A stretch of DNA of 64,000 nucleotides from Eledone cirrhosa (Eukaryota), in assembly GCA_964016885.1 (NCBI GenBank), contig OZ024744.1:133796001-133860000 (forward strand). The letters are read 5' to 3'. Below the pieces are notes generated by a model, which saw only the letters and a list, made by a program, of their open reading frames with translations, ran no database searches and was not told where the DNA came from. Below are positions 24,401 through 60,943 of the stretch, in pieces. Numbering within the stretch: position 1 is the stretch's first letter; every line of letters starts with the position of its first letter. Made by a program: the position numbers and the translations under genes.

Positions 24401-24780
24401 TAAGTTAAGTTGGGGTTAAGTTAAGTTGCAGTTAAGTTAAGTTGAGGTTAAGTTAAGGTGCGGTTAAGTTAAGTTGGGGTTAAGTTAAGTTGGGGCTAAG
24501 TTAAGTTGGGGCTAAGTTAAGTTGGGGCTAAGTTAAGTTGGGGTTAAGTTAAGTCGGGGTTAAGTTAAGTTGGGGTTAAGTTAAGTTGAGGTTAATTTAA
24601 TTTGGGGTTAAGTTAAGTTGGGGTTAAGTTAAGTTGGGGCTAAGTTAAGTTGGGGTCAAGTTAAGTTGGGGTTAAGTTAAGTTGGTTAGTTAAGTTGAGT
24701 TTAAGTTAAGTTGGGGTTAAGTTAAGTTGGGGTTAAGTTAAGTTGGGGTTAAGTTAAGTTGGGGTTAAGTTAAGTCGGGG

Positions 24781-27700: not shown

Positions 27701-30700
27701 AAGTTGCAGTTAAGTTAAGTTGAGGTTAAGTTAAGGTGGGGTTAAGTTAAGTCGGGGTTAAGTTAAGTTGTGGTTGAGTTAAGTTGGGGTTAATTTAAGT
27801 TGGGGCTAAGTTAATTTGTGGTTAAGTTAAGTTGGGGTTAAGTTAAGTTGGGGTTAAGTTAAGTTGGGGTTGAGTTAAGTTGGGGTTGAGTTAATTTGGG
27901 GTTAAGTTAAGTTGGGGTTAAGTTAAGTTGGGTTTAAGTTAAGTTGGGGTTAAATTAAGTTGGGGTTAAATTAAGGTGGGGTTAAGTTAAGTTGGGGGTA
28001 AGTTAAGTTGGGGGCAAGTTAAGTTGGGGTTAATTTAAGTTGGGGTTAAATTAAGTTGGGGTTACGTTAAGTTGGTGTTAAGTTAAGTTGGGGTTAATTT
28101 AAGTTGGGGTTAATTAAGTTGGGGTTAAGTTAAGTTGGGGTTAAGTTAAGTTGGGGTTAATTTAAGTTGGGGTTGAGTTAAGTTGGAGTTCAGTTAAGTT
28201 GGGGATAAGTTAAGTTGGGGTTAAGTTAAGTTGGGGTTAAGTTAAGTTGGGGTTAAGTTAAGTTGGTGTTAAGTTAAGTTGGGGCTAAGTTAAGTTGGGG
28301 CTGAGTTAAGTTGGGGTTAAGTTAAGTTGGGGTTGAGTTAAGTTGGGGTTAAGTTAAGTTGGGGTCAAGTTAAGTTGGGGTTAAGTTGGGGTTAATTTAA
28401 GTTAGGTTTAAGTTAAGTTGGGGTTAAGTTAAGTTGGGGTTAAGTTAAGTTGGGGTTAAGTTAAGTTGGGGTTAAGTTAAGTTGGGGTTAAGTTAATTTG
28501 TGGTTAAGTTAAGTTGGGGTTAAGTTAAGTTGGGGTTAAGTTAAGTTGGGGTTAAGTTAAGTCGGGGTTAAATTAAGTTGGGGTTAAGTTAAGTTGGGGT
28601 TAATTTAAGTTGGGGTTAAGTTAAGTTGGGGTTAAGTTAAGTTGGGGTTAAGTTAAGATGGGGTTAAGTTAAGTTGGGGTTAAGTTAAGTTGAGGTTAAG
28701 TTAAGTTGGGGTTAAATTAAGTTGGGGTTAAGTTAAGTTGGGGTTAAGTTAAGTTGGGGTTAAGTTAAGTTGGGGATAAGTTAAGTTCGGGATAATTTAA
28801 GTTGGGGTTAAGTTAAGTTGGGTTTAAGTTAAGTTGGGGTTAAGTTAAGTTGGGGTTAAGTTAAGTTGGGGTTAAGTTAAGTTGGGGTTAAGTTAAGTTG
28901 GGGTTAAGTTAAGTTGGGGCTAAGTTAAGTTGGGGCTGAGTTAAGTTGGGGTTAAGTTAAGTTGGGGTTAAGTTAAGTTGGGGTTAAGTTAAGTTGGGGT
29001 TTATTTAAGTTGGGGTTAAATTAAGTTGGGGTTCAGTTAAGTTGGGGTTAAGATAAGTTGGGGTTAAGATGGGGTTAAATTAAGTTGGGGTTAAGTTAAG
29101 TTGGGGTTAAGTTAAGTTGGGGTTAAGTTAAGTCGGGGTTAAGTTAAGTCGGGGTTAAGTTAAGTTAGGGTTCAGTTAAGTTGGGGTTAAGTTAAGTTGG
29201 GGTTGAGTTAAGTTGGGGTTGAGTTAAATTGGGGTTGAGTTAAGTTGGGGTTGAGTTAAGTTGGTTTTGAGTTAAGTTGGGGTTAAGTTAAGTTGGGGTT
29301 AAGTTAAGTTGCAGTTAAGTTAAGTTGAGGTTAAGTTAAGGTGCGGTTAAGTTAAGTTGGGGTTAAGTTAAGTTGGGGCTAAGTTAAGTTGGGGCTAAGT
29401 TAAGTTGGGGCTAAGTTAAGTTGGGGTTAAGTTAAGTTGAGGTTAATTTAATTTGGGGTTAAGTTGGGGTTAAGTTAAGTTGGGGTTAAGTTAAGTTGGG
29501 GTTAAGTTAAGTTGGGTTTAAGTTAAGTTGGGGTTAAGTTAAGTTGGGGTCAAGTTAAGTTGGAGTTAAGTTAAGTTGGTTAGTTAAGTTGAGTTTAAGT
29601 TAAGTTGGGGTTAATTTAAGTTGGGGTTAAGTTAAGTTGGGGTTAAGTTAAGTTGGGGTTAAGTTAAGTTGGGGTTAAGTTAAGTTGGGGTTAAGTTAAG
29701 TTGGGGTTAAGTTAATTTGTGGTTAAGTTAAGTTGGGGTTAAGTTAAGTTGGGGTTAAGTTAAGTTGGGGTTAAGTTAAGTCGGGGTTAAGTTAAGTTGG
29801 GGTTAAGCTAAGTTGGGGTTAATTTAAGTTGGGGTTAAGTTAAGTTGGGGCTAAGTTAAGTTGAGGTTAAGTTAAGTTGGGGTTAAATTAAGTTGGGGTT
29901 AAGTTAAGTTGGGGTTAAGTTAAGTTGGGGTTAAGTTAAGTTGAGGTTAAGTTAAGTTGGGGTTAAATTAAGTTGGGGTTAAGTTAAGTTGGGGTTAAGT
30001 TAAGTTGGGTTTAATTTAAGTTGGGGTTAAGTTAAGTTGGGGATAAGTTAAGTTGGGGTTAAGTTAAGTTGGGGTTAAGTTAAGTTGGGGTTAATTTAAG
30101 TCGGGGTTAAGTTAAGTTAGGGTTCAGTTAAGTTGGGGTTAAGTTAAGTTGGGGTTGAGTTAAGTTGGGGTTGAGTTAAATTGGCGTTGAGTTAAGTTGC
30201 GGTTGAGTTAAGTTGGGGTTAAGTTAAGTTGCAGTTAAGTTAAGTTGAGGTTAAGTTAAGGTGGGGTTAAGTTAAGTCGGGGTTAAGTTAAGTTGTGGTT
30301 GAGTTAAGTTGGGGTTAATTTAAGTTGGGGCTAAGTTAATTTGTGGTTAAGTTAAGTTGGGGTTAAGTTAAGTTGGGGTTAAGTTAAGTTGGGGTTGAGT
30401 TAAGTTGGGGTTGAGTTAATTTGGGGTTAAGTTAAGTTGGGGTTAAGTTAAGTTGGGTTTAAGTTAAGTTGGGGTTAAATTAAGTTGGGGTTAAATTAAG
30501 GTGGGGTTAAGTTAAGTTGGGGGTAAGTTAAGTTGGGGGCAAGTTAAGTTGGGGTTAATTTAAGTTGGGGTTAAATTAAGTTGGGGTTACGTTAAGTTGG
30601 TGTTAAGTTAAGTTGGGGTTAATTTAAGTTGGGGTTAATTAAGTTGGGGTTAAGTTAAGTTGGGGTTAAGTTAAGTTGGGGTTAATTTAAGTTGGGGTTA

Positions 30701-33700
30701 AGTTAAGTTGGAGTTCAGTTAAGTTGGGGATAAGTTAAGTTGGGGTTAAGTTAAGTTGGGGTTAAGTTAAGTTGGGGTTAAGTTAAGTTGGTGTTAAGTT
30801 AAGTTGGGGCTAAGTTAAGTTGGGGCTGAGTTAAGTTGGGGCTGAGTTAAGTTGGGGTTAAGTTAAGTTGGGGTTGAGTTAAGTTGGGGTTAAGTTAAGT
30901 TGGGGTCAAGTTAAGTTGGGGTTAAGTTGGGGTTAAATTAAGTTAGGTTTAAGTTAAGTTGGGGTTAAGTTAAGTTGGGGTTAAGTTAAGTTGGGGTTAA
31001 GTTAAGTTGGGGTTAAGTTAAGTTGGGGTTAAGTTAATTTGTGGTTAAGTTAAGTTGGGGTTAAGTTAAGTTGGGGTTAAATTAAGTTGGGGTTAAGTTA
31101 AGTTGGGGTTAAGTTAAGTTGGGGTTAAGTTAAGTTGGGGATAAGTTAAGTTGGGGATAATTTAAGTTGGGGTTAAGTTAAGTTGGGTTTAAGTTAAGTT
31201 GGGGTTAAGTTAAGTTGGGGATAAGTTAAGTTGGGGTTAAGTTAAGTTGGGGTTAAGTTAAGTTGAGGCTAAGTTAAGTTGGGGCTGAGTTAAGTTGGGG
31301 TTAAGTTAAGTTGGGGTTAAGTTAAGTTGGGGTTAATTTAAGTTGGGGTTTATTTAAGTTGGGGTTACGTTAAGTTGGTGTTAAGTTAAGTTGGGGTTAA
31401 TTTAAGTTGGGGTTAATTAAGTTGGGGTTAAGTTAAGTTGGGGTTAAGTTAAGATGGGGTTAATTTAAGTTGGGATTGAGTTAAGTTGGGGTTAAGTTAA
31501 GTTGGGGTTAAGTTAAGTTGGTGTTAAGTTAAGTTGTGGCTAAGTTAAGTTGGGGCTGAGTTAAGTTGGGGCTGAGTTAAGTTGGGGTTAAGTTAAGTTG
31601 GGGTTGAGTTAAGTTGGGGTTAAGTTAAGTTGGGGTCAAGTTAAGTCGGGGTTAAGTTGGGGTTAAGTTAAGTTAGGGTTAAGTTAAGTTGGGGTTAAGT
31701 TAAGTTGGGGTTAAGTTAAGTTGGGGTTAAGTTAAGTTGGGGTTAAGTTAATTTGTGGTTAAGTTAAGTTGGGGTTAAGTTAAGTTGGGGTTAAGTTAAG
31801 TTGGGGTTAAGTTAAGTCGGGGTTAAGTTAAGTTGGGGTTAAGTTAAGTTGGGGTTAATTTAAGTTGGGGTTAAGTTAAGTTGGGGTTAAGTTAAGTTGG
31901 GGTTAAGTTAAGATGGGGTTAAGTTAAGTTGGGGTTAAGTTAAGTTGAGGTTAAGTTAAGTTGGGGTTAAATTAAGTTGGGGTTAAGTTAAGTTGGGGTT
32001 AAGTTAAGTTGGGGTTAAGTTAAGTTGAGGATAAGTTAAGTTGCGGATAATTTAAGTTGGGGTTAAGTTAAGTTGGGTTTAAGTTAAGTTGGGGTTAAGT
32101 TAAGTTGGGGTTAAGTTAAGTTGGGGTTAAGTTAAGTTGGGGTTAAGTTAAGTTGGGGTTAAGTTAAGTTGGGGCTAAGTTAAGTTGGGGCTGAGTTAAG
32201 TTGGGGTTAAGTTAAGTTGGGGTTAAGTTAAGTTGGGGTTAAGTTAAGTTGGGGTTAAGTTAAGTCGGGGTTAAGTTAAGTTAGGGTTCAGTTAAGTTGG
32301 GGTTAAGTTAAGTTGGGGTTGAGTTAAGTTGGGGTTGAGTTAAATTGGGGTTGAGTTAAGTTGGGGTTGAGTTAAGTTGGTTTTGAGTTAAGTTGGGGTT
32401 AAGTTAAGTTGGGGTTAAGTTAAGTTGCAGTTAAGTTAAGTTGAGGTTAAGTTAAGGTGCGGTTAAGTTAAGTTGGGGTTAAGTTAAGTTGGGGCTAAGT
32501 TAAGTTGGGGCTAAGTTAAGTTGGGGCTAAGTTAAGTTGGGGTTAAGTTAAGTCGGGGTTAAGTTAAGTTGGGGTTAAGTTAAGTTGAGGTTAATTTAAT
32601 TTGGGGTTAAGTTAAGTTGGGGTTAAGTTAAGTTGGGGCTAAGTTAAGTTGGGGTTAAGTTAAGTTGGGTTTAAGTTAAGTTGGGGTTAAGTTAAGTTGG
32701 GTTCAAGTTAAGTTGGGGTTAAGTTAAGTTGGTTAGTTAAGTTGAGTTTAAGTTAAGTTGGGGTTAATTTAAGTTGGGGTTAAGTTAAGTTGGGGTTAAG
32801 TTAAGTTGGGGTTAAGTTAAGTTGGGGTTAAGTTAAGTTGGGGTTAAGTTAAGTCGGGGTTAATTTAAGTCGGGGTTAAGTTAAGTTAGGGTTCAGTTAA
32901 GTTGGGGTTAAGTTAAGTTGGGGTTGAGTTAAGTTGGGGTTGAGTTAAATTGGCGTTGAGTTAAGTTGCGGTTGAGTTAAGTTGGTGTTGAGTTAAGTTG
33001 GGGTTAAGTTAAGTTGGGGTTAAGTTAAGTTGCAGTTAAGTTAAGTTGAGGTTAAGTTAAGGTGGGGTTAAGTTAAGTCGGGGTTAAGTTAAGTTGTGGT
33101 TGAGTTAAGTTGGGGTTAATTTAAGTTGGGGCTAAGTTAATTTGTGGTTAAGTTAAGTTGGGGTTAAGTTAAGTTGGGGTTAAGTTAAGTTGGGGTTGAG
33201 TTAAGTTGGGGTTGAGTTAATTTGGGGTTAAGTTAAGTTGGGGTTAAGTTAAGTTGGGTTTAAGTTAAGTTGGGGTTAAATTAAGTTGGGGTTAAATTAA
33301 GGTGGGGTTAAGTTAAGTTGGGGGTAAGTTAAGTTGGGGGCAAGTTAAGTTGGGGTTAATTTAAGTTGGGGTTAAATTAAGTTGGGGTTACGTTAAGTTG
33401 GTGTTAAGTTAAGTTGGGGTTAATTTAAGTTGGGGTTAATTAAGTTGGGGTTAAGTTAAGTTGGGGTTAAGTTAAGTTGGGGTTAATTTAAGTTGGGGTT
33501 GAGTTAAGTTGGAGTTCAGTTAAGTTGGGGATAAGTTAAGTTGGGGTTAAGTTAAGTTGGGGTTAAGTTAAGTTGGGGTTAAGTTAAGTTGGTGTTAAGT
33601 TAAGTTGGGGCTAAGTTAAGTTGGGGCTGAGTTAAGTTGGGGCTGAGTTAAGTTGGGGTTAAGTTAAGTTGGGGTTGAGTTAAGTTGGGGTTAAGTTAAG

Positions 33701-35920
33701 TTGGGGTCAAGTTAAGTTGGGGTTAAGTTGGGGTTAATTTAAGTTAGGTTTAAGTTAAGTTGGGGTTAAGTTAAGTTGGGGTTAAGTTAAGTTGGGGTTA
33801 AGTTAAGTTGGGGTTAAGTTAAGTTGGGGTTAAGTTAATTTGTGGTTAAGTTAAGTTGGGGTTAAGTTAAGTTGGGGTTAAGTTAAGTTGGGGTTAAGTT
33901 AAGTCGGGGTTAAATTAAGTTGGGGTTAAGTTAAGTTGGGGTTAATTTAAGTTGGGGTTAAGTTAAGTTGGGGTTAAGTTAAGTTGGGGTTAAGTTAAGA
34001 TGGGGTTAAGTTAAGTTGGGGTTAAGTTAAGTTGAGGTTAAGTTAAGTTGGGGTTAAATTAAGTTGGGGTTAAGTTAAGGTGGGGTTAAGTTAAGTCGGG
34101 GTTAAGTTAAGTTGTGGTTGAGTTAAGTTGGGGTTAATTTAAGTTGGGGCTAAGTTAATTTGTGGTTAAGTTAAGTTGGGGTTAAGTTAAGTTGGGGTTA
34201 AGTTAAGTTGGGGTTGAGTTAAGTTGGGGTTGAGTTAATTTGGGGTTAAGTTAAGTTGGGGTTAAGTTAAGTTGGGTTTAAGTTAAGTTGGGGTTAAATT
34301 AAGTTGGGGTTAAATTAAGGTGGGGTTAAGTTAAGTTGGGGGTAAGTTAAGTTGGGGGCAAGTTAAGTTGGGGTTAATTTAAGTTGGGGTTAAATTAAGT
34401 TGGGGTTACGTTAAGTTGGTGTTAAGTTAAGTTGGGGTTAATTTAAGTTGGGGTTAATTAAGTTGGGGTTAAGTTAAGTTGGGGTTAAGTTAAGTTGGGG
34501 TTAATTTAAGTTGGGGTTAAGTTAAGTTGGAGTTCAGTTAAGTTGGGGATAAGTTAAGTTGGGGTTAAGTTAAGTTGAGGTTAAGTTAAGTTGGGGTTAA
34601 ATTAAGTTGGGGTTAAGTTAAGTTGGGGTTAAGTTAAGTTGGGGTTAAGTTAAGTTGGGGATAAGTTAAGTTGGGGATAATTTAAGTTGGGGTTAAGTTA
34701 AGTTGGGTTTAAGTTAAGTTGGGGTTAAGTTAAGTTGGGGTTAAGTTAAGTTGGGGTTAAGTTAAGTTGGGGTTAAGTTAAGTTGGGGTTAAGTTAAGTT
34801 GGGGCTAAGTTAAGTTGGGGCTGAGTTAAGTTGGGGTTAAGTTAAGTTGGGGTTAAGTTAAGTTGGGGTTAAGTTAAGTTGGGGTTTATTTAAGTTGGGG
34901 TTAAATTAAGTTGGGGTTCAGTTAAGTTGGGGTTAAGATAAGTTGGGGTTAAGATGGGGTTAAATTAAGTTGGGGTTAAGTTAAGTTGGGGTTAAGTTAA
35001 GTTGGGGTTAAGTTAAGTCGGGGTTAAGTTAAGTCGGGGTTAAGTTAAGTTAGGGTTCAGTTAAGTTGGGGTTAAGTTAAGTTGGGGTTGAGTTAAGTTG
35101 GGGTTGAGTTAAATTGGGGTTGAGTTAAGTTGGGGTTGAGTTAAGTTGGTTTTGAGTTAAGTTGGGGTTAAGTTAAGTTGGGGTTAAGTTAAGTTGCAGT
35201 TAAGTTAAGTTGAGGTTAAGTTAAGGTGCAGTTAAGTTAAGTTGGGGTTAAGTTAAGTTGGGGCTAAGTTAAGTTGGGGCTAAGTTAAGTTGGGGCTAAG
35301 TTAAGTTGGGGTTAAGTTAAGTTGAGGTTAATTTAATTTGGGGTTAAGTTGGGGTTAAGTTAAGTTGGGGTTAAGTTAAGTTGGGGTTAAGTTAAGTTGG
35401 GTTTAAGTTAAGTTGGGGTTAAGTTAAGTTGGGGTCAAGTTAAGTTGGAGTTAAGTTAAGTTGGTTAGTTAAGTTGAGTTTAAGTTAAGTTGGGGTTAAT
35501 TTAAGTTGGGGTTAAGTTAATTTGTGGTTAAGTTAAGTTGGGGTTAAGTTAAGTTGGGGTTAAGTTAAGTTGGGGTTAAGTTAAGTCGGGGTTAAGTTAA
35601 GTTGGGGTTAAGCTAAGTTGGGGTTAATTTAAGTTGGGGTTAAGTTAAGTTGGGGCTAAGTTAAGTTGAGGTTAAGTTAAGTTGGGGTTAAATTAAGTTG
35701 GGGTTAAGTTAAGTTGGGGTTAAGTTAAGTTGGGGTTAAGTTAAGTTGAGGTTAAGTTAAGTTGGGGTTAAATTAAGTTGGGGTTAAGTTAAGTTGGGGT
35801 TAAGTTAAGTTGGGTTTAATTTAAGTTGGGGTTAAGTTAAGTTGGGGATAAGTTAAGTTGGGGTTAAGTTAAGTTGGGGTTAAGTTAAGTTGGGGTTAAG
35901 TTAAGTTGGGGTTAATTTAA
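24781..35920 (+). repeat. Tandem duplication, period about 5.3 kb, with a net gain of about 0.5 kb in the second copy; boundaries approximate
   Basis: Markers: TCGGGG 24792/30102 and TGGCG 24875/30185 (+5,310); TTAAGCTAAG 29808/35613 (+5,805). An extra re-copied block lies at about 34080-34570. Confidence 0.75.
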
Positions 35921-35943
35921 GTTGGGGTTTATTTAAGTTGGGG

Positions 35944-36293
35944 TTAATTAAGTTGGGGTTAAGTTAAGTTGGGGTTAATTTAAGTTGGGGTTGAGTTAAG
36001 TTGGGGTTAAGTTAAGTTGGGGTTATATTAAGTTGGGGTTAAGTTAAGTTGGGGTTCAGTTAAGTTGGGTATGAGTTAAGTTGGGGTTAAGTTAAGTTGG
36101 GGTTAAGTTAAGTTGGGGTTAATTAAGTTGGGGTTAAGTTAAGTTGGGGTTAATTTAAGTTGGGGTTGAGTTAAGTTGGGGTTAAGTTAAGTTGGGGTTA
36201 TATTAAGTTGGGGTTAAGTTAAGTTGGGGTTCAGTTAAGTTGGGTATAAGTTAAGTTGGGGTTAAGTTAAGTTGGGGTTAAGTTAAGTTGGGG
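35944..36293 (+). repeat. Local 175-bp tandem duplication carrying the private GGGTAT variant
   Basis: TTAATTAAG at 35944/36119 and GGGTAT at 36067/36242. Confidence 0.75.
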
Positions 36294-37631
36294 TTAAGTT
36301 AAGTTGGTGTTAAGTTAAGTTGGGGCTAAGTTAAGTTGGGGCTGAGTTAAGTTGGGGCTGAGTTAAGTTGGGGTTAAGTTAAGTTGGGGTCAAGCTAAGT
36401 TGGGGTTAAGTTGGGGTTAAGTTAAGTTAGGTTTAAGTTAAGTTGGGGTTAAGTTAAGTTGGGGTTAAGTTAAGTTGGGGTTAAGTTAAGTTGGGGTTAA
36501 TTTAAGTTGGGGTTAAGTTAATTTCTGGTTAAGTTAAGTTGGGGTTAAGTTAAGTTGGGGTTAATTTAAGTTGGGGTTAAGTTAAGTTGGGGTCAAGTTA
36601 AGTTGGGGTTAAGTTGGGGTTAAGTTAAGTTAGGTTTAAGTTAAGTTGGGGTTAAGTTAAGTTGGGGTTAAGTTAAGTTGGGCTTAAGTTAAGTTGGGGT
36701 TAAGTTAAGTTGGGGTTAAGTTAATTTGTGGTTAAGTTAAGTTAGGGTTAAGTTAAGTTGGGGTTAAGTTGAGTTGGGGTTAAGTTAAGTCGGGGTTAAG
36801 TTAAGTTGGGGTTAAGTTAAGTTGGGGTTAATTTAAGTTGGGGTTGAATTAAGTTGGGGTTAAGTTAAGTTGGGGTTAAATTAAGTTGGGGTTAAGTTAA
36901 GTTGGGGTTAAGTCAAGTTGGGGTTAAGTTAAGTTGGGGATAAGTTAAGTTGGGGATAATTTAAGTTGGGGTTAAGTTAAGTTGGGTTTAAGTTAAGTTG
37001 GGGTTAAGTTAAGTTGGGGTTAAGTTAAGTTGGGGTTAAGTTAAGTTGGGGTTAAGTTAAGTTGGGGTTAAGTTAAGTTGGGGCTAAGTTAAGTTGGGGC
37101 TGAGTTAAGTTGGGGTTAAGTTAAGTTGGGCTTAATTTAAGTCGGGGTTAAGTTAAGTTAGGGTTCAGTTAAGTTGGGGTTGAGTTAAATTGGGGTTGAG
37201 TTAAGTTGGGGTTGAGTTAAGTTGGTGTTGAGTTAAGTTGGGGTTAAGTTAAGTTGGGGTTAACTTAAGGTGCGGTTAAGTTAAGTTGGGGTTAAGTTAA
37301 GTTGGGGCTAAGTTAAGTTGGGGCTAAGTTAAGTTGGGGCTAAGTTAAGTTGGGGTTAAGTTAAGTTGGGGTTAAGTTAAGTCGGGGTTAAGTTAAGTTG
37401 GGGTTAAGTTAAGTTGGGGTTAATTTAAGTTGGGGTTAAGTTAAGTCGGGGTTAAGTTAAGTTGGGGTTAAGTTAAGTTGGGGTTAAGTTAAGTTGGGTT
37501 TAAGTTAAGTTGGGGTTAAGTTAAGTTGGGGTTAAGTTAAGTTGGGGTTAAGTTAAGTTGGTTAGTTAAGTTGAGTTTAAGTTAAGTTGGGGTTAATTTA
37601 AGTTGGGGTTAAGTTATGTTGGGGTTAAGTT

Positions 37632-37685
37632 AAGTTGGGGTTAAGTTAAGTTGGGGTTAACCCCAACTTAACTTAACCCCAACTT
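37632..37685. repeat. Perfect 54-bp palindrome with no spacer, centred on GGGGTT|AACCCC
   Basis: The 27-nt arms are exact reverse complements (right arm AACCCCAACTTAACTTAACCCCAACTT). Imperfect pairing can extend over most of the cassette. Confidence 0.93.
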
Positions 37686-37831
37686 CACTCAACCCCAACG
37701 TAACTCAACCCCAACTTAACTTAACCCCAACTTCACTCAACCCCAACTTAACTTAACCCCAACTTCACTCAACCCCAACTTCCAACTTGACTTAACCCCA
37801 ACTTAACTTAGCCCCAACTTAACTTAAGCCC
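37659..37831 (-). repeat. Inverted cassette 1: about 10.5 monomers in reverse orientation (CCCCAACTTAACTTAA on +)
   Basis: The sequence switches at ...GGGGTT|AACCCCAACTTAACTTAACCCC... and returns to forward orientation at ...AACTTAAGCCC|TAAGTCGGGG. Confidence 0.97.
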
Positions 37832-40104
37832 TAAGTCGGGGTTAAGTTAAGTTGGCGTTAAGTTAAGTTAGGCTTAACTTAAGTTGGGGTTCAGTTAAGT
37901 TGGGGGTAAGTTAAGTTGGGGGTAAGTTAAGGTGGGGTTAAGTTAAGTTGCGGTTAAGTTGGGGTTAAGTTAAGTTAGGGTTAAGTTAAGTTGGGGTTGA
38001 GTTAAGTTGGGGTTAATTAAGTGGTGGTTATGTTAAGTTGGGGTTAAGTTAAGTTGGGGTTAATTTAAATTGGGGTTAAGTTAACTTTGTGGTTAAGTTA
38101 AGTTGGGGTTAAGTTAAGTTGGGGTTAAGTTGGGGTTGAGTTAAGTTGGGGTTGAGTGAAGTTGGGGTTAAGTTAAGTTGGGGTTAAGTTTAGTCGGGGT
38201 TAAGTTAAGTTGTGGTTGATTTAAGTTGGGGTTAATTTAAGTTGGGGCTAAGTTAATTTGTGGTTAAGTTAAGTTGGGGTTAAGTTAAGTTGGGGTTAAG
38301 GTAAGTTGGGGTTGAGTTAATTTGGGGTTAAGTTAAGTTGGGGTTAAGTTAAGTTGGGTTTAAGTTAAGTTGGGGTTAAATTAAGTTGGGGTTAAATTAA
38401 GTTGGGGTTAAGTTAAGTTGGGGGTAAGTTAATTTGGGGGCAAATTAAGTTGGGGTTAATTTAAGTTGGGGTTAAATTAAGTTGGGGTTACGTTAAGTTG
38501 GTGTTAAGTTAAGTTGGGGTTAATTTAAGTTGGGGTTAATTAAGTTGGGGTTAAGTTAAGTTGGGGTTAAGTTAAGTTGGGGTTAATTTAAGTTGGGGTT
38601 GAGTTAAGTTGGGGTTAAGTTAATTTGGGGTTATATTAAGTTGGGGTTAAGTTAAGTTGGGGTTCAGTTAAGTTGGGGATAAGTTAAGTTGGGGTTAAGT
38701 TAAGTTGGGGTTAAGTTAAGGTGGGGTTAAGTTAAGTTGGTGTTGAGTTAAGTTGGGGCTAAGTTAAGTTGGGGCTGAGTTAAGTTGGGGCTGAGTTAAG
38801 TTGGGGTTAAGTTAAGTTGGGGTTGAGTTAAGTTGGGGTTAAGTTAAGTTGGGGTCAAGTTAAGTTGGGGTTACGTTGGGGTTATGTTAAGTTGGGGTTA
38901 AGTTAAGTTGGGGTTAAATTAATTTGTGGTTAAGTTAAGTTGGGGTTAAGTTAAGTTGGGGTTAAGTTAAGTTGGGGTTAAGTTAAGTCGGGGTTAAGTT
39001 AAGTTGGGGTTAAGTTAAGTTGGGGTTAATTTAAGTTGGGGTTAAGTTAAGTTGGGGTTAAGTTAAGTTGGGGTTAAGTTAAGATGGGGTTAAGTTAAGT
39101 TGGGGTTAAGTTAAGTTGAGGTTAAGTTAAGTTGGGGTTAAATTAAGTTGGGGTTAAGTTAAGTTGGGGTTAAGTTAAGTTGGGGTTAAGTTAAGTTGGG
39201 GATAAGTTAAGTTGGGGATAATTTAAGTTGGGGTTAAGTTAAGTTGGGTTTAAGTTAAGTTGGGGTTAAGTTAAGTTGGGGTTAAATTAAGTTGGGGTTA
39301 AGTTAAGTTGGGGTTAAGTTAAGTTGGGGTTAAGTTAAGTTGGGGCTAGGTTAAGTTGGGGCTGAGTTAAGTTGGGGTTAAGTTAAGTTGGGGTTAAGTT
39401 AAGTTGGGGTTAAGTTAAGTTGGGGTTTATATAAGTTGGGGTTAAGTTAAGTTGGGGTTCAGTTAAGTTGGGGTTAAGTTAAGTTGGGGTTAAGATGGGG
39501 TTAAATTAAGTTGGGGTTAAGTTAAGTTGGGGTTAAGTTAAGTCGGGGTTAAGTTAAGTCGGGGTTAAGTTAAGTTAGGGTTCAGTTAAGTTGGGGTTAA
39601 GTTAAGTTGGGGTTGAGTTAAGTTGGGGTTGAGTTAAATTGGGGTTGAGTTAAGTTGGGGTTGAGTTAAGTTGGTGTTGAGTTAAGTTGGGGTTAAGTTA
39701 AGTTGGGGTTAAGTTAAGTTGCAGTTAAGTTAAGTTGAGGTTAAGTTAAGGTGGGGTTAAGTTAAGTCGGGGTTAAGTTAAGTTGTGGTTGAGTTAAGTT
39801 GGGGTTAATTTAAGTTGGGGCTAAGTTAATTTGTGGTTAAGTTAATTTGGGGTTAAGTTAAGTTGGGGTTGAGTTAAGTTGGGGTTGAGTTAATTTGGGG
39901 TTAAGTTAAGTTGGGGTTAATTTAAGTTGGGTTTAAGTTAATTTGGGCTTAAATTAAGTTGGGGTTAAATTAAGTTGGGGTTAAGTTAAGTTGGGGGTAA
40001 GTTAAGTTGGGGGCAAGTTAAGTTGGGGTTAATTTAAGTTGGGGTTAAATTAAGTTGGGGTTAAGTTAAGTTGGGGTTAAGTTAAGTTGGGGTTAATTTA
40101 AGTT

Positions 40105-43100
40105 GGGGTTGAGTTAAGTTGGGGTTAAGTTAAGTTGGGGTTATATTAAGTTGGGGTTAAGTTAAGTTGGGGTTCAGTTAAGTTGGGGATAGGTTAAGTT
40201 GGGGTTAAGTTAAGTTGGGGCTAAGTTAAGTTGGGGCTGAGTTAAGTTGGGGCTGAGTTAAGTTGGGGTTAAGTTAAGTTGGGGTTGAGTTAAGTTGGGG
40301 TTAAGTTAAGTTGGGGTCAAGTTAAGTTGGGGTTAAGTTGGGGTTAAGTTAAGTTAGGTTTAAGTTAAGTTGGGGTTAAGTTAAGTTGGGGTTAAGTTAA
40401 GTTGGGGTTAAGTTAAGTTGGGGTTAAGTTAAGTTGGGGTTAAGTTAATTTGTGGTTAAGTTAAGTTTGGGTTAAGTTAAGTTGGGGTTAAATTAAGTTT
40501 GGGTTAAGTTAAGTTGGGGTTAAGTTAAGTTGGGGTTAAGTTAAGTTGGGGATAAGTTAAGTTGGGGATAATTTAAGTTGGGGTTAAGTTAAGTTGGGTT
40601 TAAGTTAAGTTGGGGTTAAGTTAAGTTGAGGCTAAGTTAAGTTGGGGCTGAGTTAAGTTGGGGTTAAGTTAAGTTGGGGTTAAGTTAAGTTGGGGTTAAT
40701 TTAAGTTGGGGTTTATTTAAGTTGGGGTTACGTTAAGTTGGTGTTAAGTTAAGTTGGGGTTAATTTAAGTTGGGGTTAATTAAGTTGGGGTTAAGTTAAG
40801 TTGGGGTTAAGTTAAGATGGGGTTAATTTAAGTTGGGATTGAGTTAAGTTGGGGTTAAGTTAAGTTGGGGTTAAGTTAAGTTGGTGTTAAGTTAAGTTGT
40901 GGCTAAGTTAAGTTGGGGCTGAGTTAAGTTGGGGCTGAGTTAAGTTGGGGTTAAGTTAAGTTGGGGTTGAGTTAAGTTGGGGTTAAGTTAAGTTGGGGTC
41001 AAGTTAAGTCGGGGTTAAGTTGGGGTTAAGTTAAGTTAGGGTTAAGTTAAGTTGGGGTTAAGTTAAGTTGGGGTTAAGTTAAGTTGGAGTTAAGTTAAGT
41101 TGGGGTTAAGTTAAGTTGGGGTTAAGTTAATTTGTGGTTAAGTTAAGTTGGGGTTAAGTTAAGTTGGGGTTAAGTTAAGTTGGGGTTAAGTTAAGTCGGG
41201 GTTAAGTTAAGTTGGGGTTAAGTTAAGTTGGGGTTAATTTAAGTTGGGGTTAAGTTAAGTTGGGGTTAAGTTAAGTTGGGGTTAAGTTAAGATGGGGTTA
41301 AGTTAAGTTGGGGTTAAGTTAAGTTGAGGTTAAGTTAAGTTGGGGTTAAATTAAGTTGGGGTTAAGTTAAGTTGGGGTTAAGTTAAGTTGGGGTTAAGTT
41401 AAGTTGAGGATAAGTTAAGTTGGGGATAATTTAAGTTGGGGTTAAGTTAAGTTGGGTTCAAGTTAAGTTGGGGTTAAGTTAAGTTGGGGTTAAGTTAAGT
41501 TGGGGTTAAGTTAAGTTGGGGTTAAGTTAAGTTGGGGTTAAGTTAAGTTGGGGCTAAGTTAAGTTGGGGCTGAGTTAAGTTGGGGTTAAGTTAAGCTGGG
41601 GTTAAGTTAAGTTGGGGTTAAGTTAAGTTGGGGTTTATTTAAGTTGGGGTTAAATTAAGTTGGGGTTCAGTTAAGTTGGGGTTAAGATAAGTTGGGGTTA
41701 AGATGGGGTTAAATTAAGTTGGGGTTAAGTTAAGTTGGGGTTAAGTTAAGTTGGGGTTAAGTTAAGTTGGGGTTAAGTTAAGTCGGGGTTAAGTTAAGTC
41801 GGGGTTAAGTTAAGTTAGGGTTCAGTTAAGTTGGGGTTAAGTTAAGTTGGGGTTGAGTTAAGTTGGGGTTGAGTTAAATTGGGGTTGAGTTAAGTTGGGG
41901 TTGAGTTAAGTTGGTTTTGAGTTAAGTTGGGGTTAAGTTAAGTTGGGGTTAAGTTAAGTTGCAGTTAAGTTAAGTTGAGGTTAAGTTAAGGTGCGGTTAA
42001 GTTAAGTTGGGGTTAAGTTAAGTTGGGGCTAAGTTAAGTTGGGGCTAAGTTAAGTTGGGGCTAAGTTAAGTTGGGGTTAAGTTAAGTCGGGGTTAAGTTA
42101 AGTTGGGGTTAAGTTAAGTTGAGGTTAATTTAATTTGGGGTTAAGTTAAGTTGGGGTTAAGTTAAGTTGGGGCTAAGTTAAGTTGGGGTTAAGTTAAGTT
42201 GGGTTTAAGTTAAGTTGGGGTTAAGTTAAGTTGGGGTCAAGTTAAGTTGGGGTTAAGTTAAGTTGGTTAGTTAAGTTGAGTTTAAGTTAAGTTGGGGTTA
42301 ATTTAAGTTGGGGTTAAGTTAAGTTGGGGTTAAGTTAAGTTGGGGTTAAGTTAAGTTGGGGTTAAGTTAAGTTGGGGTTAAGTTAAGTCGGGGTTAATTT
42401 AAGTCGGGGTTAAGTTAAGTTAGGGTTCAGTTAAGTTGGGGTTAAGTTAAGTTGGGGTTGAGTTAAGTTGGGGTTGAGTTAAATTGGCGTTGAGTTAAGT
42501 TGCGGTTGAGTTAAGTTAGTGTTGAGTTAAGTTGGGGTTAAGTTAAGTTGGGGTTAAGTTAAGTTGCAGTTAAGTTAAGTTGAGGTTAAGTTAAGGTGGG
42601 GTTAAGTTAAGTCGGGGTTAAGTTAAGTTGTGGTTGAGTTAAGTTGGGGTTAATTTAAGTTGGGGCTAAGTTAATTTGTGGTTAAGTTAAGTTGGGGTTA
42701 AGTTAAGTTGGGGTTAAGTTAAGTTGGGGTTGAGTTAAGTTGGGGTTGAGTTAATTTGGGGTTAAGTTAAGTTGGGGTTAAGTTAAGTTGGGTTTAAGTT
42801 AAGTTGGGGTTAAATTAAGTTGGGGTTAAATTAAGGTTGGGTTAAGTTAAGTTGGGGGTAAGTTAAGTTGGGGTTGAGTTAAGTTGGGGTTAAGTTAAGT
42901 TGGGGTTATATTAAGTTGGGGTTAAGTTAAGTTGGGGTTCAGTTAAGTTGGGGATAGGTTAAGTTGGGGTTAAGTTAAGTTGGGGCTAAGTTAAGTTGGG
43001 GCTGAGTTAAGTTGGGGCTGAGTTAAGTTGGGGTTAAGTTAAGTTGGGGTTGAGTTAAGTTGGGGTTAAGTTAAGTTGGGGTCAAGTTAAGTTGGGGTTA

Positions 43101-45683
43101 AGTTGGGGTTAAGTTAAGTTAGGTTTAAGTTAAGTTGGGGTTAAGTTAAGTTGGGGTTAAGTTAAGTTGGGGTTAAGTTAAGTTGGGGTTAAGTTAAGTT
43201 GGGGTTAAGTTAATTTGTGGTTAAGTTAAGTTTGGGTTAAGTTAAGTTGGGGTTAAATTAAGTTTGGGTTAAGTTAAGTTGGGGTTAAGTTAAGTTGGGG
43301 TTAAGTTAAGTTGGGGATAAGTTAAGTTGGGGATAATTTAAGTTGGGGTTAAGTTAAGTTGGGTTTAAGTTAAGTTGGGGTTAAGTTAAGTTGGGGATAA
43401 GTTAAGTTGGGGTTAAGTTAAGTTGGGGTTAAGTTAAGTTGAGGCTAAGTTAAGTTGGGGCTGAGTTAAGTTGGGGTTAAGTTAAGTTGGGGTTAAGTTA
43501 AGTTGGGGTTAATTTAAGTTGGGGTTTATTTAAGTTGGGGTTACGTTAAGTTGGTGTTAAGTTAAGTTGGGGTTAATTTAAGTTGGGGTTAATTAAGCTG
43601 GGGTTAAGTTAAGTTGGGGTTAAGTTAAGATGGGGTTAATTTAAGTTGGGATTGAGTTAAGTTGGGGTTAAGTTAAGTTGGGGTTAAGTTAAGTTGGTGT
43701 TAAGTTAAGTTGTGGCTAAGTTAAGTTGGGGCTGAGTTAAGTTGGGGCTGAGTTAAGTTGGGGTTAAGTTAAGTTGGGGTTGAGTTAAGTTGGGGTTAAG
43801 TTAAGTTGGGGTCAAGTTAAGTCGGGGTTAAGTTGGGGTTAAGTTAAGTTAGGGTTAAGTTAAGTTGGGGTTAAGTTAAGTTGGGGTTAAGTTAAGTTGG
43901 AGTTAAGTTAAGTTGGGGTTAAGTTAAGTTGGGGTTAAGTTAATTTGTGGTTAAGTTAAGTTGGGGTTAAGTTAAGTTGGGGTTAAGTTAAGTTGGGGTT
44001 AAGTTAAGTCGGGGTTAAGTTAAGTTGGGGTTAAGTTAAGTTGGGGTTAATTTAAGTTGGGGTTAAGTTAAGTTGGGGTTAAGTTAAGTTGGGGTTAAGT
44101 TAAGATGGGGTTAAGTTAAGTTGGGGTTAAGTTAAGTTGAGGTTAAGTTAAGTTGGGGTTAAATTAAGTTGGGGTTAAGTTAAGTTGGGGTTAAGTTAAG
44201 TTGGGGTTAAGTTAAGTTGAGGATAAGTTAAGTTGGGGATAATTTAAGTTGGGGTTAAGTTAAGTTGGGTTCAAGTTAAGTTGGGGTTAAGTTAAGTTGG
44301 GGTTAAGTTAAGTTGGGGTTAAGTTAAGTTGGGGTTAAGTTAAGTTGGGGTTAAGTTAAGTTGGGGCTAAGTTAAGTTGGGGCTGAGTTAAGTTGGGGTT
44401 AAGTTAAGCTGGGGTTAAGTTAAGTTGGGGTTAAGTTAAGTTGGGGTTTATTTAAGTTGGGGTTAAATTAAGTTGGGGTTCAGTTAAGTTGGGGTTAAGA
44501 TAAGTTGGGGTTAAGATGGGGTTAAATTAAGTTGGGGTTAAGTTAAGTTGGGGTTAAGTTAAGTTGGGGTTAAGTTAAGTTGGGGTTAAGTTAAGTCGGG
44601 GTTAAGTTAAGTCGGGGTTAAGTTAAGTTAGGGTTCAGTTAAGTTGGGGTTAAGTTAAGTTGGGGTTGAGTTAAGTTGGGGTTGAGTTAAATTGGGGTTG
44701 AGTTAAGTTGGGGTTGAGTTAAGTTGGTTTTGAGTTAAGTTGGGGTTAAGTTAAGTTGGGGTTAAGTTAAGTTGCAGTTAAGTTAAGTTGAGGTTAAGTT
44801 AAGGTGCGGTTAAGTTAAGTTGGGGTTAAGTTAAGTTGGGGCTAAGTTAAGTTGGGGCTAAGTTAAGTTGGGGCTAAGTTAAGTTGGGGTTAAGTTAAGT
44901 CGGGGTTAAGTTAAGTTGGGGTTAAGTTAAGTTGAGGTTAATTTAATTTGGGGTTAAGTTAAGTTGGGGTTAAGTTAAGTTGGGGCTAAGTTAAGTTGGG
45001 GTTAAGTTAAGTTGGGTTTAAGTTAAGTTGGGGTTAAGTTAAGTTGGTGTCAAGTTAAGTTGGGGTTAAGTTAAGTTGGTTAGTTAAGTTGAGTTTAAGT
45101 TAAGTTGGGGTTAATTTAAGTTGGGGTTAAGTTAAGTTGGGGTTAAGTTAAGTTGGGGTTAAGTTAAGTTGGGGTTAAGTTAAGTTGGGGTTAAGTTAAG
45201 TCGGGGTTAATTTAAGTCGGGGTTAAGTTAAGTTAGGGTTCAGTTAAGTTGGGGTTAAGTTAAGTTGGGGTTGAGTTAAGTTGGGGTTGAGTTAAATTGG
45301 CGTTGAGTTAAGTTGCGGTTGAGTTAAGTTGGTGTTGAGTTAAGTTGGGGTTAAGTTAAGTTGGGGTTAAGTTAAGTTGCAGTTAAGTTAAGTTGAGGTT
45401 AAGTTAAGGTGGGGTTAAGTTAAGTCGGGGTTAAGTTAAGTTGTGGTTGAGTTAAGTTGGGGTTAATTTAAGTTGGGGCTAAGTTAATTTGTGGTTAAGT
45501 TAAGTTGGGGTTAAGTTAAGTTGGGGTTAAGTTAAGTTGGGGTTGAGTTAAGTTGGGGTTGAGTTAATTTGGGGTTAAGTTAAGTTGGGGTTAAGTTAAG
45601 TTGGGTTTAAGTTAAGTTGGGGTTAAATTAAGTTGGGGTTAAATTAAGGTTGGGTTAAGTTAAGTTGGGGGTAAGTTAAGTTG
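40105..45683 (+). repeat. Tandem duplication, period about 2.8 kb
   Basis: Private markers: TTTGGG 40468/43233 (+2,765), GGGTTCAAG 41459/44272 (+2,813), AAGGTTGGG 42836/45649 (+2,813). The 48-bp shift equals 3 monomers. Confidence 0.85.
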
Positions 45684-48600
45684 GGGGCAAGTTAAGTTGG
45701 GGTTAATTTAAGTTGGGGTTAAATTAAGTTGGGGTTACGTTAAGTTGGTGTTAAGTTAAGTTGGGGTTAATTTAAGTTGGGGTTAATTAAGTTGGGGTTA
45801 AGTTAAGTTGGGGTTAAGTTAAGTTGGGGTTAATTTAAGTTGGGGTTGAGTTAAGTTGGAGTTCAGTTAAGTTGGGGATAAGTTAAGTTGGGGTTAAGTT
45901 AAGTTGGGGTTAAGTTAAGTTGGGGTTAAGTTAAGTTGGTGTTCAGTTAAGTTGGGGCTAAGTTAAGTTGGGGCTGAGTTAAGTTGGGGCTGAGTTAAGT
46001 TGGGCTTCAGTTAAGTTGGGGTTGAGTTAAGTTGGGGTTAAGTTAAGTTGGGGTCAAGTTAAGTTGGGGTTAAGTTGGGGTTAAGTTAAGTTAGGTTTAA
46101 GTTAAGTTGGGGTTAAGTTAAGTTGGGGTTAAGTGAAGTTGGGGTTAAGTTAAGTTGGGGTTAAGTTAAGTTGGGGTTAAGTTAATTTGTGGTTAAGTTA
46201 AGTTGGGGTTAAGTTAAGTTGGGGTTAAGTTAAGTTGGGGTTAAGTTAAGTCGGGGTTAAGTTAAGTTGGGGTTAAGTTAAGTTGGGGTTAATTTAAGTT
46301 GGGGTTAAGTTAAGTTGGGGTTAAGTTAAGTCGGGGTTAAGTTAAGTTGGGGTTAAGTTAAGTTGGGGTTAAGTTAAGTTGAGGTTAAGTTAAGTTGGGG
46401 TTAAATTAAGTTGGGGTTAAGTTAAGTTGGGGTTAAGTTAAGTTGGGGTTAAGTTAAGTTGGGGATAAGTTAAGTTGGGGATAATTTAAGTTGGGGTTAA
46501 GTTAAGTTGGGGATAAGTTAAGTTGGGGCTGATTTAAGTTGGGGTTAAGTTAAGTTGGGGTTAAGTTAAGTTGGGGTTAATTTAAGTTGGGGTTTATTTA
46601 AGTTGGGGTTACGTTAAATTGGTGTTAAGTTAAGTTGGGGTTAATTTAAGTTGGGGTTAATTAAGTTGGGGTTAAGTTAAGTTGGGGTTAATTTAAGTTG
46701 GGGTTAATTTAAGTTGGGGTTGAGTTAAGTTGGGGTTAAGTTAAGTTGGGGTTATATTAAGTTGGGGTTAAGTTAAGTTGGGGTTCAGTTAAGTTGGGGA
46801 TAAGTTAAGTTGGGGTTAAGTTAAGTTGGGGTTAAGTTAAGTTGGGGTTAAGTTAAGTTGGTGTTAAGTTAAGTTGGGGCTAATTTAAGTTGGGGCTGAG
46901 TTAAGTTGGGGCTGAGTTAAGTTGGGCTTAAGTTAAGTTGGCGTCAAGTTAAGTTGGGGTTAAGTTGGGGTTAAGTTAAGTTAGGTTTAAGTTAAGTTGG
47001 GGTTAAGTTAAGTTGGGGTTAAGTTAAGTTGGGGTTAAATTAAGTTGGGGTTAAGTTAAGTTGGGGTTAAGTTAATTTGTGGTTAAGTTAAGTTGGGGTT
47101 AAGTTAAGTTGGGGTTAAGTTAAGTTGGGGTTAAGTTAAGTCGGGGTTAAGTTAAGTTGGGTTTAAGTTAAGTTGGGGTTAATTTAAGTTGGGGTTAAGT
47201 TAAGTTGGGGTCAAGTTAAGTTGGGGTTAAGTTGGGGTTAAGTTAAGTTAGGTTTAAGTTAAGTTGGGGTTAAGTTAAGTTGGGGTTAAGTTAAGTTGGG
47301 GTTAAGTTAAGTTGGGGTTAAGTTAATTTGTGGTTAAGTTAAGTTGGGGTTAAGTTAAGTTGGGCTTAAGTTAAGTTGGGGTTAAGTTAAGTCGGGGTTA
47401 AGTTAAGTTGGGGTTAAGTTAAGTTGGGGTTAATTTAAGTTGGGGTTTATTTAAGTTGGGGTTACGTTAAGTTGGTGTTAAGTTAAGTTGGGGTTAATTT
47501 AAGTTGGGGTTAATTAAGTTGGGGTTAAGTTAAGTTGGGGTTAAGTTAAGATGGGGTTAATTTAAGTTGGGGTTGAGTTAAGTTGGGGTTAAGTTAAGTT
47601 GGGGTTATATTAAGTTGGGGTTAAGTTAAGTTGGGGTTCAGTTAAGTTGGGGATAAGTTAAGTTGGGGTTAAGTTAAGTTGGGGTTAAGTTAAGTTGGGG
47701 TTAAGTTAAGTTGGTGTTAAGTTAAGTTGTGGCTAAGTTAAGTTGGCGCTGAGTTAAGTTGGGGTTACGTTAAGTTGGTGTTAAGTTAAGTTGGGGTTAA
47801 TTTAAGTTGGGGTTAATTAAGTTGGGGTTAAGTTAAGTTGGGGTTAAGTTAAGATGGGGTTAATTTAAGTTGCGGTTGAGTTAAGTTGGGGTTAAGTTAA
47901 GTTGGGGTTATATTAAGTTGGGGTTAAGTTAAGTTGGGGTTCAGTTAAGTTGGGGATAAGTTAAGTTGGGGTTAAGTTAAGTTGGGGCTAAGTTAAGTTG
48001 GGGCTGAGTTAAGTTGGGGCTGAGTTAAGTTGGGGTTAAGTTGGGGTTAATTTAAGTTAGGTTTAAGTTAAGTTGGGGTCAAGTTAAGTTGGGGTTAAGT
48101 TGGGGTTAATTTAAGTTAGGTTTAAGTTAAGTTGGGGTTAAGTTAAGTTGGGGTTAAGTTAAGTTGGGGTTAAGTTAAGTTGGGGTTAAGTTAAGTTGGG
48201 GTTGAGTTAAGTTGGGGTTAAGTTAAGTTGGGGTCAAGTTAAGTTGGGGTTAAGTTGGGGTTAAGTTAAGTTAGGTTTAAGTTAAGTTGGGGTTAAGTTA
48301 AGTTGGGGTTAAGTTAAGTTGGGGTTAAGTTAAGTTGGGGTTAAGTTAAGTTGGGGTTAAGTTAATTTGTGGTTAAGTTAAGTTGGGGTTAAGTTGAGTT
48401 GGGGTTAAGTTAAGTTGGGGTTAAATTAAGTTGGGGTTAAGTTAAGTTGGGGTTAAGTTAAGTTGGGGTTAAGTTAAGTTGGGGATAAGTTAAGTTGGGG
48501 ATAATTTAAGTTGGGGTTAAGTAAAGTTGGGTTTAAGTTAAGTTGGGGTTAAGTTAAGTTGGGGATAAGTTAAGTTGGGGTTAAGTTAAGTTGGGGTTAA

Positions 48601-54600: not shown

Positions 54601-55028
54601 TATATTAAGTTGGGGTTAAGTTAAGTTGGGGTTCAGTTAAGTTGGGGATAAGTTAAGTTGGGGTTAAATTAAGTTGGGGTTAAGTTAAGTTGGGGTTAAG
54701 TTAAGTTGGTGTTAAGTTAAGTTGTGGCTAAGTTAAGTTGGCGCTGAGTTAAGTTGGGGTTAATTTAAGTTGGGGTTAAGTTAAGTTGGGATTAATTTAA
54801 GTTGGGGTTTATTTAAGTTGGGGTTACGTTAAGTTGGTGTTAAGTTAAGTTGGGGTTAATTTAAGTTGGGGTTAATTAAGTTGGGGTTAAGTTAAGTTGG
54901 GGTTAAGTTAAGATGGGGTTAATTTAAGTTGCGGTTGAGTTAAGTTGGGGTTAAGTTAAGTTGGGGTTATATTAAGTTGGGGTTAAGTTAAGTTGGGGTT
55001 CAGTTAAGTTGGGGATAAGTTAAGTTGG

Positions 55029-60610: not shown

Positions 60611-60943
60611 AAGTTGGGGCTAAGTTAAGTTGGGGTTAAGTTAAGTTGGGGTTAAGTTAAGTCGGGGTTAAGTTAAGTTGGGGTTAAGTTAAGTTGGGGT
60701 TAATTTAAGTTGGGGTTAAGTTAAGTCGGGGTTAAGTTAAGTTGGGGTTAAGTTAAGTTGGGGTTAAGTTAAGTTGGGTTTAAGTTAAGTTGGGGTTAAG
60801 TTAAGTTGGGGTTAAGTTAAGTTGGGGTTAAGTTAAGTTGGTTAGTTAAGTTGAGTTTAAGTTAAGTTGGGGTTAATTTAAGTTGGGGTTAAGTTATGTT
60901 GGGGTTAAGTTAAGTTGGGGTTAAGTTAAGTTGGGGTTAAGTT

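What the first reader, a model, noticed from the sequence alone, without database searches (positions are those of the whole stretch)
37632..37841. 173-bp strand-inverted cassette starting at a perfect spacer-less 54-bp palindrome
Seen: after 37.6 kb of strict polarity the array flips exactly in the middle of a self-complementary TTAA (GGGGTT|AACCCC), runs about 10.5 units backwards, then flips back at CTTAAGCCC|TAAG. Established: long spacer-less palindromes can extrude cruciforms or hairpins and are fragile, and fold-back or template switching at short palindromes produces such junctions. Inference: this is either a preserved fold-back/template-switch scar or a structural landmark in the array, such as a dyad symmetry of the kind proposed for centromere specification, or a replication/recombination initiation site. 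It is the most distinctive structure in the window.
Basis: partly seen in the sequence, partly recalled or inferred. Interest (0 to 1): 0.75.

Follow-up and report, generated by a model that had tools for sequence, protein, structure and literature searches.

The report
One old satellite flip, copied ~1,000-fold
The 174-base back-to-front piece is real but not unique: it occurs twice in this window and an estimated thousand times along one 8-megabase array of a 16-base repeat, with the same two joints, so it is likely the inherited scar of a single old copying slip rather than a purpose-built landmark.

Summary
In detail: the 16-bp satellite flips at a TTAA (37658|37659), runs 174 bp backwards and flips back at 37832|37833; the 54-bp palindrome is exact. 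It is not unique. An identical copy sits at 60971, and the junction 22-mer occurs 774 times in the genome, nearly all likely in one ~8.4-Mb array. In ~1.4 Mb sampled, 210 of 212 forward-to-reverse flips and all 218 reverse-to-forward flips descend from the same two junctions, and cassettes share private variants absent from 530 kb of background: one old event, then amplified. The palindrome is geometric: 12% of random in-register joins give arms of 27 bp or more, and real arms range from 1 to 43 bp. The cassette does not mirror its flank, so it is not a local fold-back. Conservation of the centre is within control range; no function is shown. Side results: all three distinct forward-to-reverse junction types pivot at TTAA, two recombinant cassettes border larger flips, and the array ends in a cassette stump. 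The scan noted this same cassette before (e1-10311106) and like cases in other satellites of this genome; Tribolium satellites are the published precedent. Low interest.

The parts
1..64000 (+). 16-bp G-rich satellite array, about 4,029 monomers, 90% neighbour match; part of a ~8.4-Mb array (G000:C28, 126.967-135.348 Mb)
37632..37685 (.). Perfect 54-bp spacer-less palindrome around junction J1; right arm ends at the cassette's first private variant
37657..37660 (.). TTAA pivot of J1: 4-bp self-complementary microhomology present in every monomer
   Evidence: sequence; phase analysis
37659..37832 (-). Inverted cassette, 174-bp family, about 11 monomers with private variants and a 9-bp deletion; 55 sampled copies of about this length lie within 5 mismatches of it
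37822..37843 (.). Return junction J2 (37832|37833): not the reciprocal of J1, about 1 bp of microhomology, two family-specific substitutions
   Evidence: bridged by a public contig (table 8, record 5)
37158..39158 (+). Duplicated block carrying the cassette; 99% or more identical to the block around 60971 (offset 23,312), 642 bp exact to the right of J1
60944..60997 (.). Second copy of the 54-bp palindrome (J1 centre 60970|60971); two extra consensus monomers on its left
60971..61144 (-). Second copy of the inverted cassette, identical to the first

Best explanation
This is one of an estimated thousand copies of a short inverted piece in a 16-bp satellite array; it likely arose once, likely when a replicating strand switched templates at the monomer's own TTAA, and was then likely multiplied passively as kilobase blocks of the array duplicated. 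Steps: (1, shown) every sampled cassette has the same two junctions, shared private variants and shared flank markers, so they have one ancestor; (2, inferred) the nascent strand left its template at a TTAA, annealed to the TTAA of the opposite strand elsewhere in the array, copied some 10-25 monomers backwards and returned with almost no homology at J2; (3, shown) the palindrome follows from geometry, since any flip at TTAA puts monomers head to head without a spacer, and its length is set by the nearest substitution; (4, shown) copies travel inside larger duplicated blocks and gain or lose whole monomers (87-487 bp); (5, inferred from two cases) being inverted homology, a cassette now and then recombines with the bulk array and seeds a larger flip; (6, inferred) it has no selected function.
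For: One origin: 210 of 212 forward-to-reverse junctions sampled on C28 are J1 type, and all 218 reverse-to-forward junctions are J2 type (207 in phase, 11 with a nearby indel). Private motifs occur 38, 55 and 17 times in short segments and 0 times in 530 kb of background. 774 exact J1 22-mers, control 0; grid tiles predict about 720 of them and about 960 cassettes in the main array. Passive copying: the window's two copies lie in a block 99% or more identical over 2 kb; families are regionally clustered. TTAA pivot: the only two other forward-to-reverse junctions found (L040, L074) cross at the monomer's second TTAA; 3 of 4 distinct junction types at TTAA has p about 0.007 by hand calculation (2 of 16 phases, uniform and independent, post hoc). 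Chance palindrome: null P(arm >= 27) = 0.12; observed arms 1-43 bp in 209 copies. No arm-to-arm correction: 1 mirrored variant against 3.35 expected in 196 copies. Recombinants: L097 and L074 carry J2 with cassette DNA running in register into background, without J1.
Against: The central 22 bp are intact in 125 of 170 copies from unbiased tiles, against 0.37 expected from two background halves. Shared ancestry explains this, and distinct alleles per site (0.50) fall inside the range of seven control sets (0.23-0.91), but it is the second lowest of eight, so mild conservation is not excluded. No un-inverted source was found in 1.07 Mb of background (best non-cassette match 118 of 123), so template switching cannot be told from break-and-rejoin. 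J2 is not at a TTAA. The array's end is a cassette stump joined to a related 32-bp satellite about 5 bp inside J2, which leaves the order of events open. Raw-read support for J1 itself was inconclusive.
Confidence: 0.72

Rival explanations
1. Edge-first origin: J1 began as the breakpoint of a large inversion near the array's end, leaving a stump collinear with the older 32-bp satellite; a second break at the stump's outer end made J2 and freed the cassette, which was then amplified. Still neutral, but two break-and-rejoin events rather than one template switch.
For: At 135.348 Mb the array ends as J1 + 277-bp stump + related 32-bp satellite in the stump's orientation, with no cassette in the four grid tiles from 135.03 Mb up to that point; the boundary lies about 5 bp from where J2 lies in free cassettes. 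Private cassette variants would be old edge variants.
Against: Free cassettes carry about 5 bp more 16-mer sequence than the stump, which fits breakage at J2 better; each of the two edge copies resembles a different local cassette family rather than an outgroup; the two edges are 99.2% identical in their flanks and count as one event.
Confidence: 0.15
2. Selected structural landmark: the palindromes extrude hairpins or cruciforms that organise chromatin or mark the centromere, as proposed for Tribolium inversion sites, and their copy number is maintained.
For: About 1,000 copies over about 5 Mb; J1 core intact in 125 of 170 copies and at the low end of variation; a single strand folds into a long hairpin (-161.5 kcal/mol); conserved inversion sites are proposed to be functional in Tribolium (PMC13081366, PMC12581902, passages).
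Against: Arms range from 1 to 43 bp, and whole regional families carry substitutions in or next to the core; no regular spacing; absent from 3.3 Mb of the same array and from the C3 and C2 tiles; about 26,000 of 28,019 long consensus runs are estimated to lie on this one contig, so it is not a genome-wide centromeric repeat. The folding score is what any inverted repeat gives.
Confidence: 0.08
3. Recent local fold-back: the strand folded on itself at TTAA and copied the adjacent upstream DNA.
For: Spacer-less palindrome at J1.
Against: The cassette's diagnostic variants are not mirrored in the left flank in any family; 1 mirrored variant against 3.35 expected.
Confidence: 0.03
4. Assembly or library artefact (chimeric or fold-back reads).
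For: Palindromic junctions can arise in libraries (recalled); raw reads did not settle J1; the array has assembly gaps at 124.69, 131.99 and 132.79 Mb.
Against: Hundreds of copies with heritable family structure; J2 is bridged by a 68-bp public contig with 34 letters on each side at word depth 1,464 (this run may be the assembly's own sample).
Confidence: 0.02

Closest known systems
Macro-dyad symmetries with conserved inversion sites in Tribolium freemani TfSat01 (PMC12581902, passages read) and T. madens TmSat1/TmSat2 (PMC13081366, passages read)
   Same: A few junction types, each in hundreds to thousands of near-identical copies; truncated monomers joined head to head without foreign sequence; variable number of monomers between fixed junctions ('cassette').
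   Different: Here the inverted part is 87-487 bp in a unidirectional array, not multi-kb subarrays of balanced length; two junctions from one event; confined to part of one array rather than spread over several chromosomes; J1 has no loop (Tribolium: 9-27 bp loops).
Strand switches in human satellites: HSat3B5 on chr9 and beta satellites, over 200 inversion breakpoints (10.1101/2021.07.12.452052, passages read)
   Same: Many inversion breakpoints inside a short-unit satellite array; larger intra-array inversions alongside.
   Different: In the passages read, the breakpoints are counted, not traced to one amplified cassette.
Short template-switch inversions, four-point model (PMC5453318, abstract and outline only)
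   Same: A short inverted segment made by switching to the opposite strand at a short inverted match and returning.
   Different: The model needs the ancestral allele to place the four points; none was found here, and the event has since been amplified about 1,000-fold.
Centromeric dyad symmetries (PMC5889037, search listing only)
   Same: Dyad symmetry in satellite DNA able to form non-B structures.
   Different: That proposal concerns dyads under 10 bp in every monomer of centromeric satellites; this is a rare junction in a largely single-contig satellite of untested centromeric status.

Membership tests
Tribolium-type macro-dyad satellite | Few conserved inversion-site types in many copies | tested here: met
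   210 of 212 and 218 of 218 junctions belong to two types
Tribolium-type macro-dyad satellite | No foreign sequence between the opposed monomers | tested here: met
Tribolium-type macro-dyad satellite | Multi-kb inverted subarrays of roughly balanced length | tested here: not met
   203 complete cassettes are 87-487 bp, median 201
Tribolium-type macro-dyad satellite | Same inversion sites on several chromosomes | tested here: not met
   First listed hits are all on C28 although C2 and C3 carry the satellite; no flip in the C2 and C3 tiles; tile estimate accounts for about 745 of 774 sites. Contigs listed after C28 were not seen directly.
Local fold-back inverted duplication | Inverted segment is the mirror copy of the adjacent flank | tested here: not met
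Template-switch inversion (four-point model) | Short inverted microhomology at the switch points | tested here: inconclusive
   J1 has 4 bp (TTAA); J2 has about 1 bp
Template-switch inversion (four-point model) | Ancestral allele or template can be identified nearby | tested here: not met
   No source in 1.07 Mb of background; the array was only sampled
TTAA-targeting or foldback transposon / MITE | Target-site duplication on both sides, terminal inverted repeats, own internal sequence | tested here: not met
   TTAA at J1 only; the cassette is pure satellite; flanks are co-inherited rather than new at each site
Centromere-specifying dyad | CENP-A/CenH3 occupancy at or near the dyads | not testable with these tools
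   no chromatin data
Centromere-specifying dyad | Purifying selection on the dyad | tested here: inconclusive
   distinct alleles per site 0.50 against 0.23-0.91 in seven control sets; copies are not independent

The most novel reading that the evidence does not exclude
The amplified cassette is a built-in strand bridge: its ~1,000 copies give any strand that has switched to the wrong template at a TTAA a homologous way back, so one old micro-inversion now catalyses kilobase-to-megabase inversions and inverted insertions in the array, and breakage at its J2 quasi-palindrome set the array's end.
Probability: 0.3. Interest if true: 0.5.

Novelty: new member of a known kind. Interest (0 to 1): 0.18.

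Why it matters
Mostly as a caution and a marker. Conserved, high-copy inversion junctions in satellites have been read as signs of structural function; here the same picture follows from one event and ordinary array turnover. The cassette is a unique, heritable tag for tracing expansion of an otherwise featureless 16-bp array, and the recombinant copies offer a small test of whether micro-inversions seed larger rearrangements in satellites.

Tried and rejected
Raw reads on J1: three RAD-seq runs and one contig set were laid on 37629-37720; most reads come from bulk monomers and fit either arm, so spanning could not be shown; one 51-bp contig crosses the centre with only 25 and 27 letters and one gap. 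A library cut at TTAA could also create J1 by ligation (enzyme not on record). Not used as support. Paper search for six 16-mer phases of the monomer: 0 papers; four more searches gave precedents but no description of this satellite; supplements were not read. PMC13652916 (abstract only): inverted ~15-kb centroids, a different structure. Folding z-score rejected as evidence, since any inverted repeat gives it. Selection against long palindromes: 10 of 209 arms reach 43 bp against a null of 0.02, no deficit, but only a handful of independent families. Fold-back at the L040 junction: arms 91% alike, no more than unrelated blocks (92-95%). The ungapped mirror score (92 of 123) is distorted by a flank deletion and was not used. 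Seven inter-cassette spacers mis-called as cassettes were dropped before (and two rows with short flanks); searches dropped tiles chosen from pattern hits (39 of 209 junctions) and rows with indels. Look-up of earlier findings near this place gave nothing.

Full report
Observation. The window is one 16-bp satellite (about 4,029 monomers, 90% match) with GC skew near +0.93 except in two bins. Reverse-strand motifs occur only at 37661-37815 and 60973-61127, and the only perfect palindromes with arms above 5 bp are two of 27 bp, centred at 37658|37659 and 60970|60971.

Context. The window is G000:C28:133.796-133.860 Mb on a 136.5-Mb contig. Tiles place the array at 126.967-135.348 Mb, with assembly gaps at 131.99 and 132.79 Mb and blocks of an AT-rich ~37-bp repeat at 132.1-132.8 Mb, plus a small reversed array at 124.60-124.69 Mb that ends in a gap. 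The same monomer occurs mid-contig on C3 (about 0.5 Mb, beside an interstitial telomeric array) and inside a ~520-bp composite unit on C2. About 26,000 of 28,019 matches to a 51-letter consensus run are estimated to lie in the C28 array.

Copy number and single origin. The J1 22-mer has 774 exact sites, control 0; the window's own form of J2 has 106. In the 1.39 Mb fetched, 210 of 212 forward-to-reverse junctions are J1 (197 in phase, 13 with a nearby 1-bp loss) and all 218 reverse-to-forward junctions are J2 (207 in phase, 11 with nearby indels). Written monomer by monomer, cassettes share variants near both ends and share flank markers on both sides. Three cassette motifs occur 38, 55 and 17 times in short segments and never in 530 kb of background. 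Lengths of 203 complete cassettes run from 87 to 487 bp, changing mostly by whole monomers, in regionally clustered families. Grid tiles give about 960 cassettes in the main array, none in 13 tiles from 126.97 to 130.24 Mb, where the genome search also lists none. This is what one event followed by block duplication predicts.

The palindrome. A flip inside a tandem array must put monomers head to head; a flip at a self-complementary TTAA leaves no spacer (follows from the sequence). For random in-register pairs of background sites with an intact core, the median perfect arm is 13 bp and P(>= 27) is 0.12. Among 209 J1 copies arms run from 1 to 43 bp, with 69 at 27 bp because the 174-bp family has its first variant there. 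Against a neutral reading, the central 22 bp are intact in 125 of 170 copies from unbiased tiles, versus 0.37 expected from background. The copies share an ancestor, so I counted distinct alleles per site: 0.50 at the J1 centre against 0.23-0.91 in seven control sets, and mismatch per site 0.011 against 0.007-0.050. That is within range but at the low end; weak conservation is not excluded. Mirrored variants, the mark of fold-back copying or arm-to-arm repair, number 1 against 3.35 expected in 196 copies.

Mechanism of origin (inferred). J1 crosses in the monomer's first TTAA. The only two other forward-to-reverse junctions found, at 131.965 Mb (L040) and 132.859 Mb (L074), cross in the second TTAA; each is seen once and only in the assembly. 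Three of four junction types at TTAA has p about 0.007 by hand (2 of 16 phases; post hoc). J2 is not the reciprocal of J1: it differs by 14 bp lost or 2 gained, modulo 16, and has about 1 bp of microhomology. I favour a microhomology-primed template switch with a near-blunt return, in the sense of the four-point model (PMC5453318, abstract and outline), but no source allele was found in 1.07 Mb of background, so break-and-rejoin remains possible.

Side results. (a) At 133.355 Mb (L097) J2 and two cassette monomers run in register into background with no J1, and this marks the end of a reversed block of about 0.56 Mb whose other end is a gap. (b) In L074 a 2-kb block in the opposite orientation is bounded by a TTAA junction on one side and by J2 plus most of a cassette, in register with background, on the other, with about five monomers repeated on both sides; this reads as an inverted templated insertion that returned through cassette homology (inferred, one case). 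(c) At 135.348 Mb the array ends as J1, a 277-bp stump and a related 32-bp satellite; the boundary lies about 5 bp inside the position of J2. The mirror-image end at 124.599 Mb has a flank 99.2% identical over 4,544 bp and lacks 4,999 bp, so the two ends are one event, either an inverted duplication or two haplotypes scaffolded together. Whether the stump preceded the free cassette is unresolved.

Reads. A 68-bp public contig bridges J2 with 34 letters on each side at word depth 1,464; that run may be the assembly's own sample. The test on J1 was inconclusive. An artefact is unlikely given the heritable family structure.

Comparison. Tribolium freemani and T. madens satellites have a few conserved inversion-site types in thousands of copies, proposed to be structural (PMC12581902 and PMC13081366, passages); there the inverted subarrays are multi-kb and occur on several chromosomes, which is not met here. 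Human HSat3B5 and beta satellites hold over 200 inversion breakpoints (10.1101/2021.07.12.452052, passages). No paper held the monomer sequence in the one search made for it. After my reading was set, a look-up showed that this scan had already described the same cassette 2.4 Mb away with the same reading, and several like cases in other satellites of this genome; these notes are unchecked and are not counted as support.

Verdict. Real, old, inherited and common; function unsupported and untested at the chromatin level. New member of a known kind; interest 0.18.

Noticed in passing
L086:7793-8070 and L106 (C28 135.348-135.36 Mb); L018:9467-9683 and L031 (124.58-124.60 Mb): Both ends of the array system are a cassette stump joined to a diverged, related 32-bp satellite; the two flanks are 99.2% identical inverted copies, one lacking 5 kb. 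Inverted duplication or mis-scaffolded haplotype.
   Followed up: partly
L074:5030-9390 (C28 132.857-132.861 Mb): 2-kb inverted block bounded by a TTAA junction and a J1-less cassette, with about five monomers repeated; forms an inverted repeat with 2-kb arms, 97% alike.
   Followed up: partly
L097:5369 (C28 133.355 Mb): End of a ~0.56-Mb reversed block falls inside a cassette, two monomers past J2.
   Followed up: partly
L131:1-9165 (C3 184.76-184.77 Mb): At least 9 kb of degenerate interstitial telomeric hexamer repeat, mid-contig, joined tail to tail to the 16-bp array at a TTAA; the 16-bp and 32-bp satellites may be telomere-derived (untested).
   Followed up: no
L089, L139, L140 (C2 209.196-209.75 Mb): About 550-kb array of a ~520-bp composite unit: ~245 bp of the 16-mer plus ~275 bp related to a 196/1584-bp repeat that also lies at C28 124.69 and 126.4 Mb.
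   Followed up: no
L066-L073, L093, L094 (C28 132.1-132.79 Mb): Blocks of an AT-rich ~37-bp repeat interrupt the array; one recurring junction joins them to the middle of a cassette.
   Followed up: no
L020:5786-6623 and L034:7772-8608 (C28 126.0 and 124.76 Mb): Large duplicated units hold scrambled rRNA fragments (LSU match E 1.6e-12, weak SSU match) in tandem repeats, and a histone 3' stem-loop match (E 1.7e-7).
   Followed up: partly
L091:1-660 and L095:3743-5072: Low-quality, indel-rich sequence beside assembly gaps; orientation of the contig between the gaps (131.99-132.79 Mb) is uncertain, and its cassette families match those of the 124.6-Mb array.
   Followed up: no
window 1-64000: Irregular higher-order duplications with offsets such as 5,259, 2,813, 7,718 and 23,312 bp; no fixed higher-order unit.
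   Followed up: no
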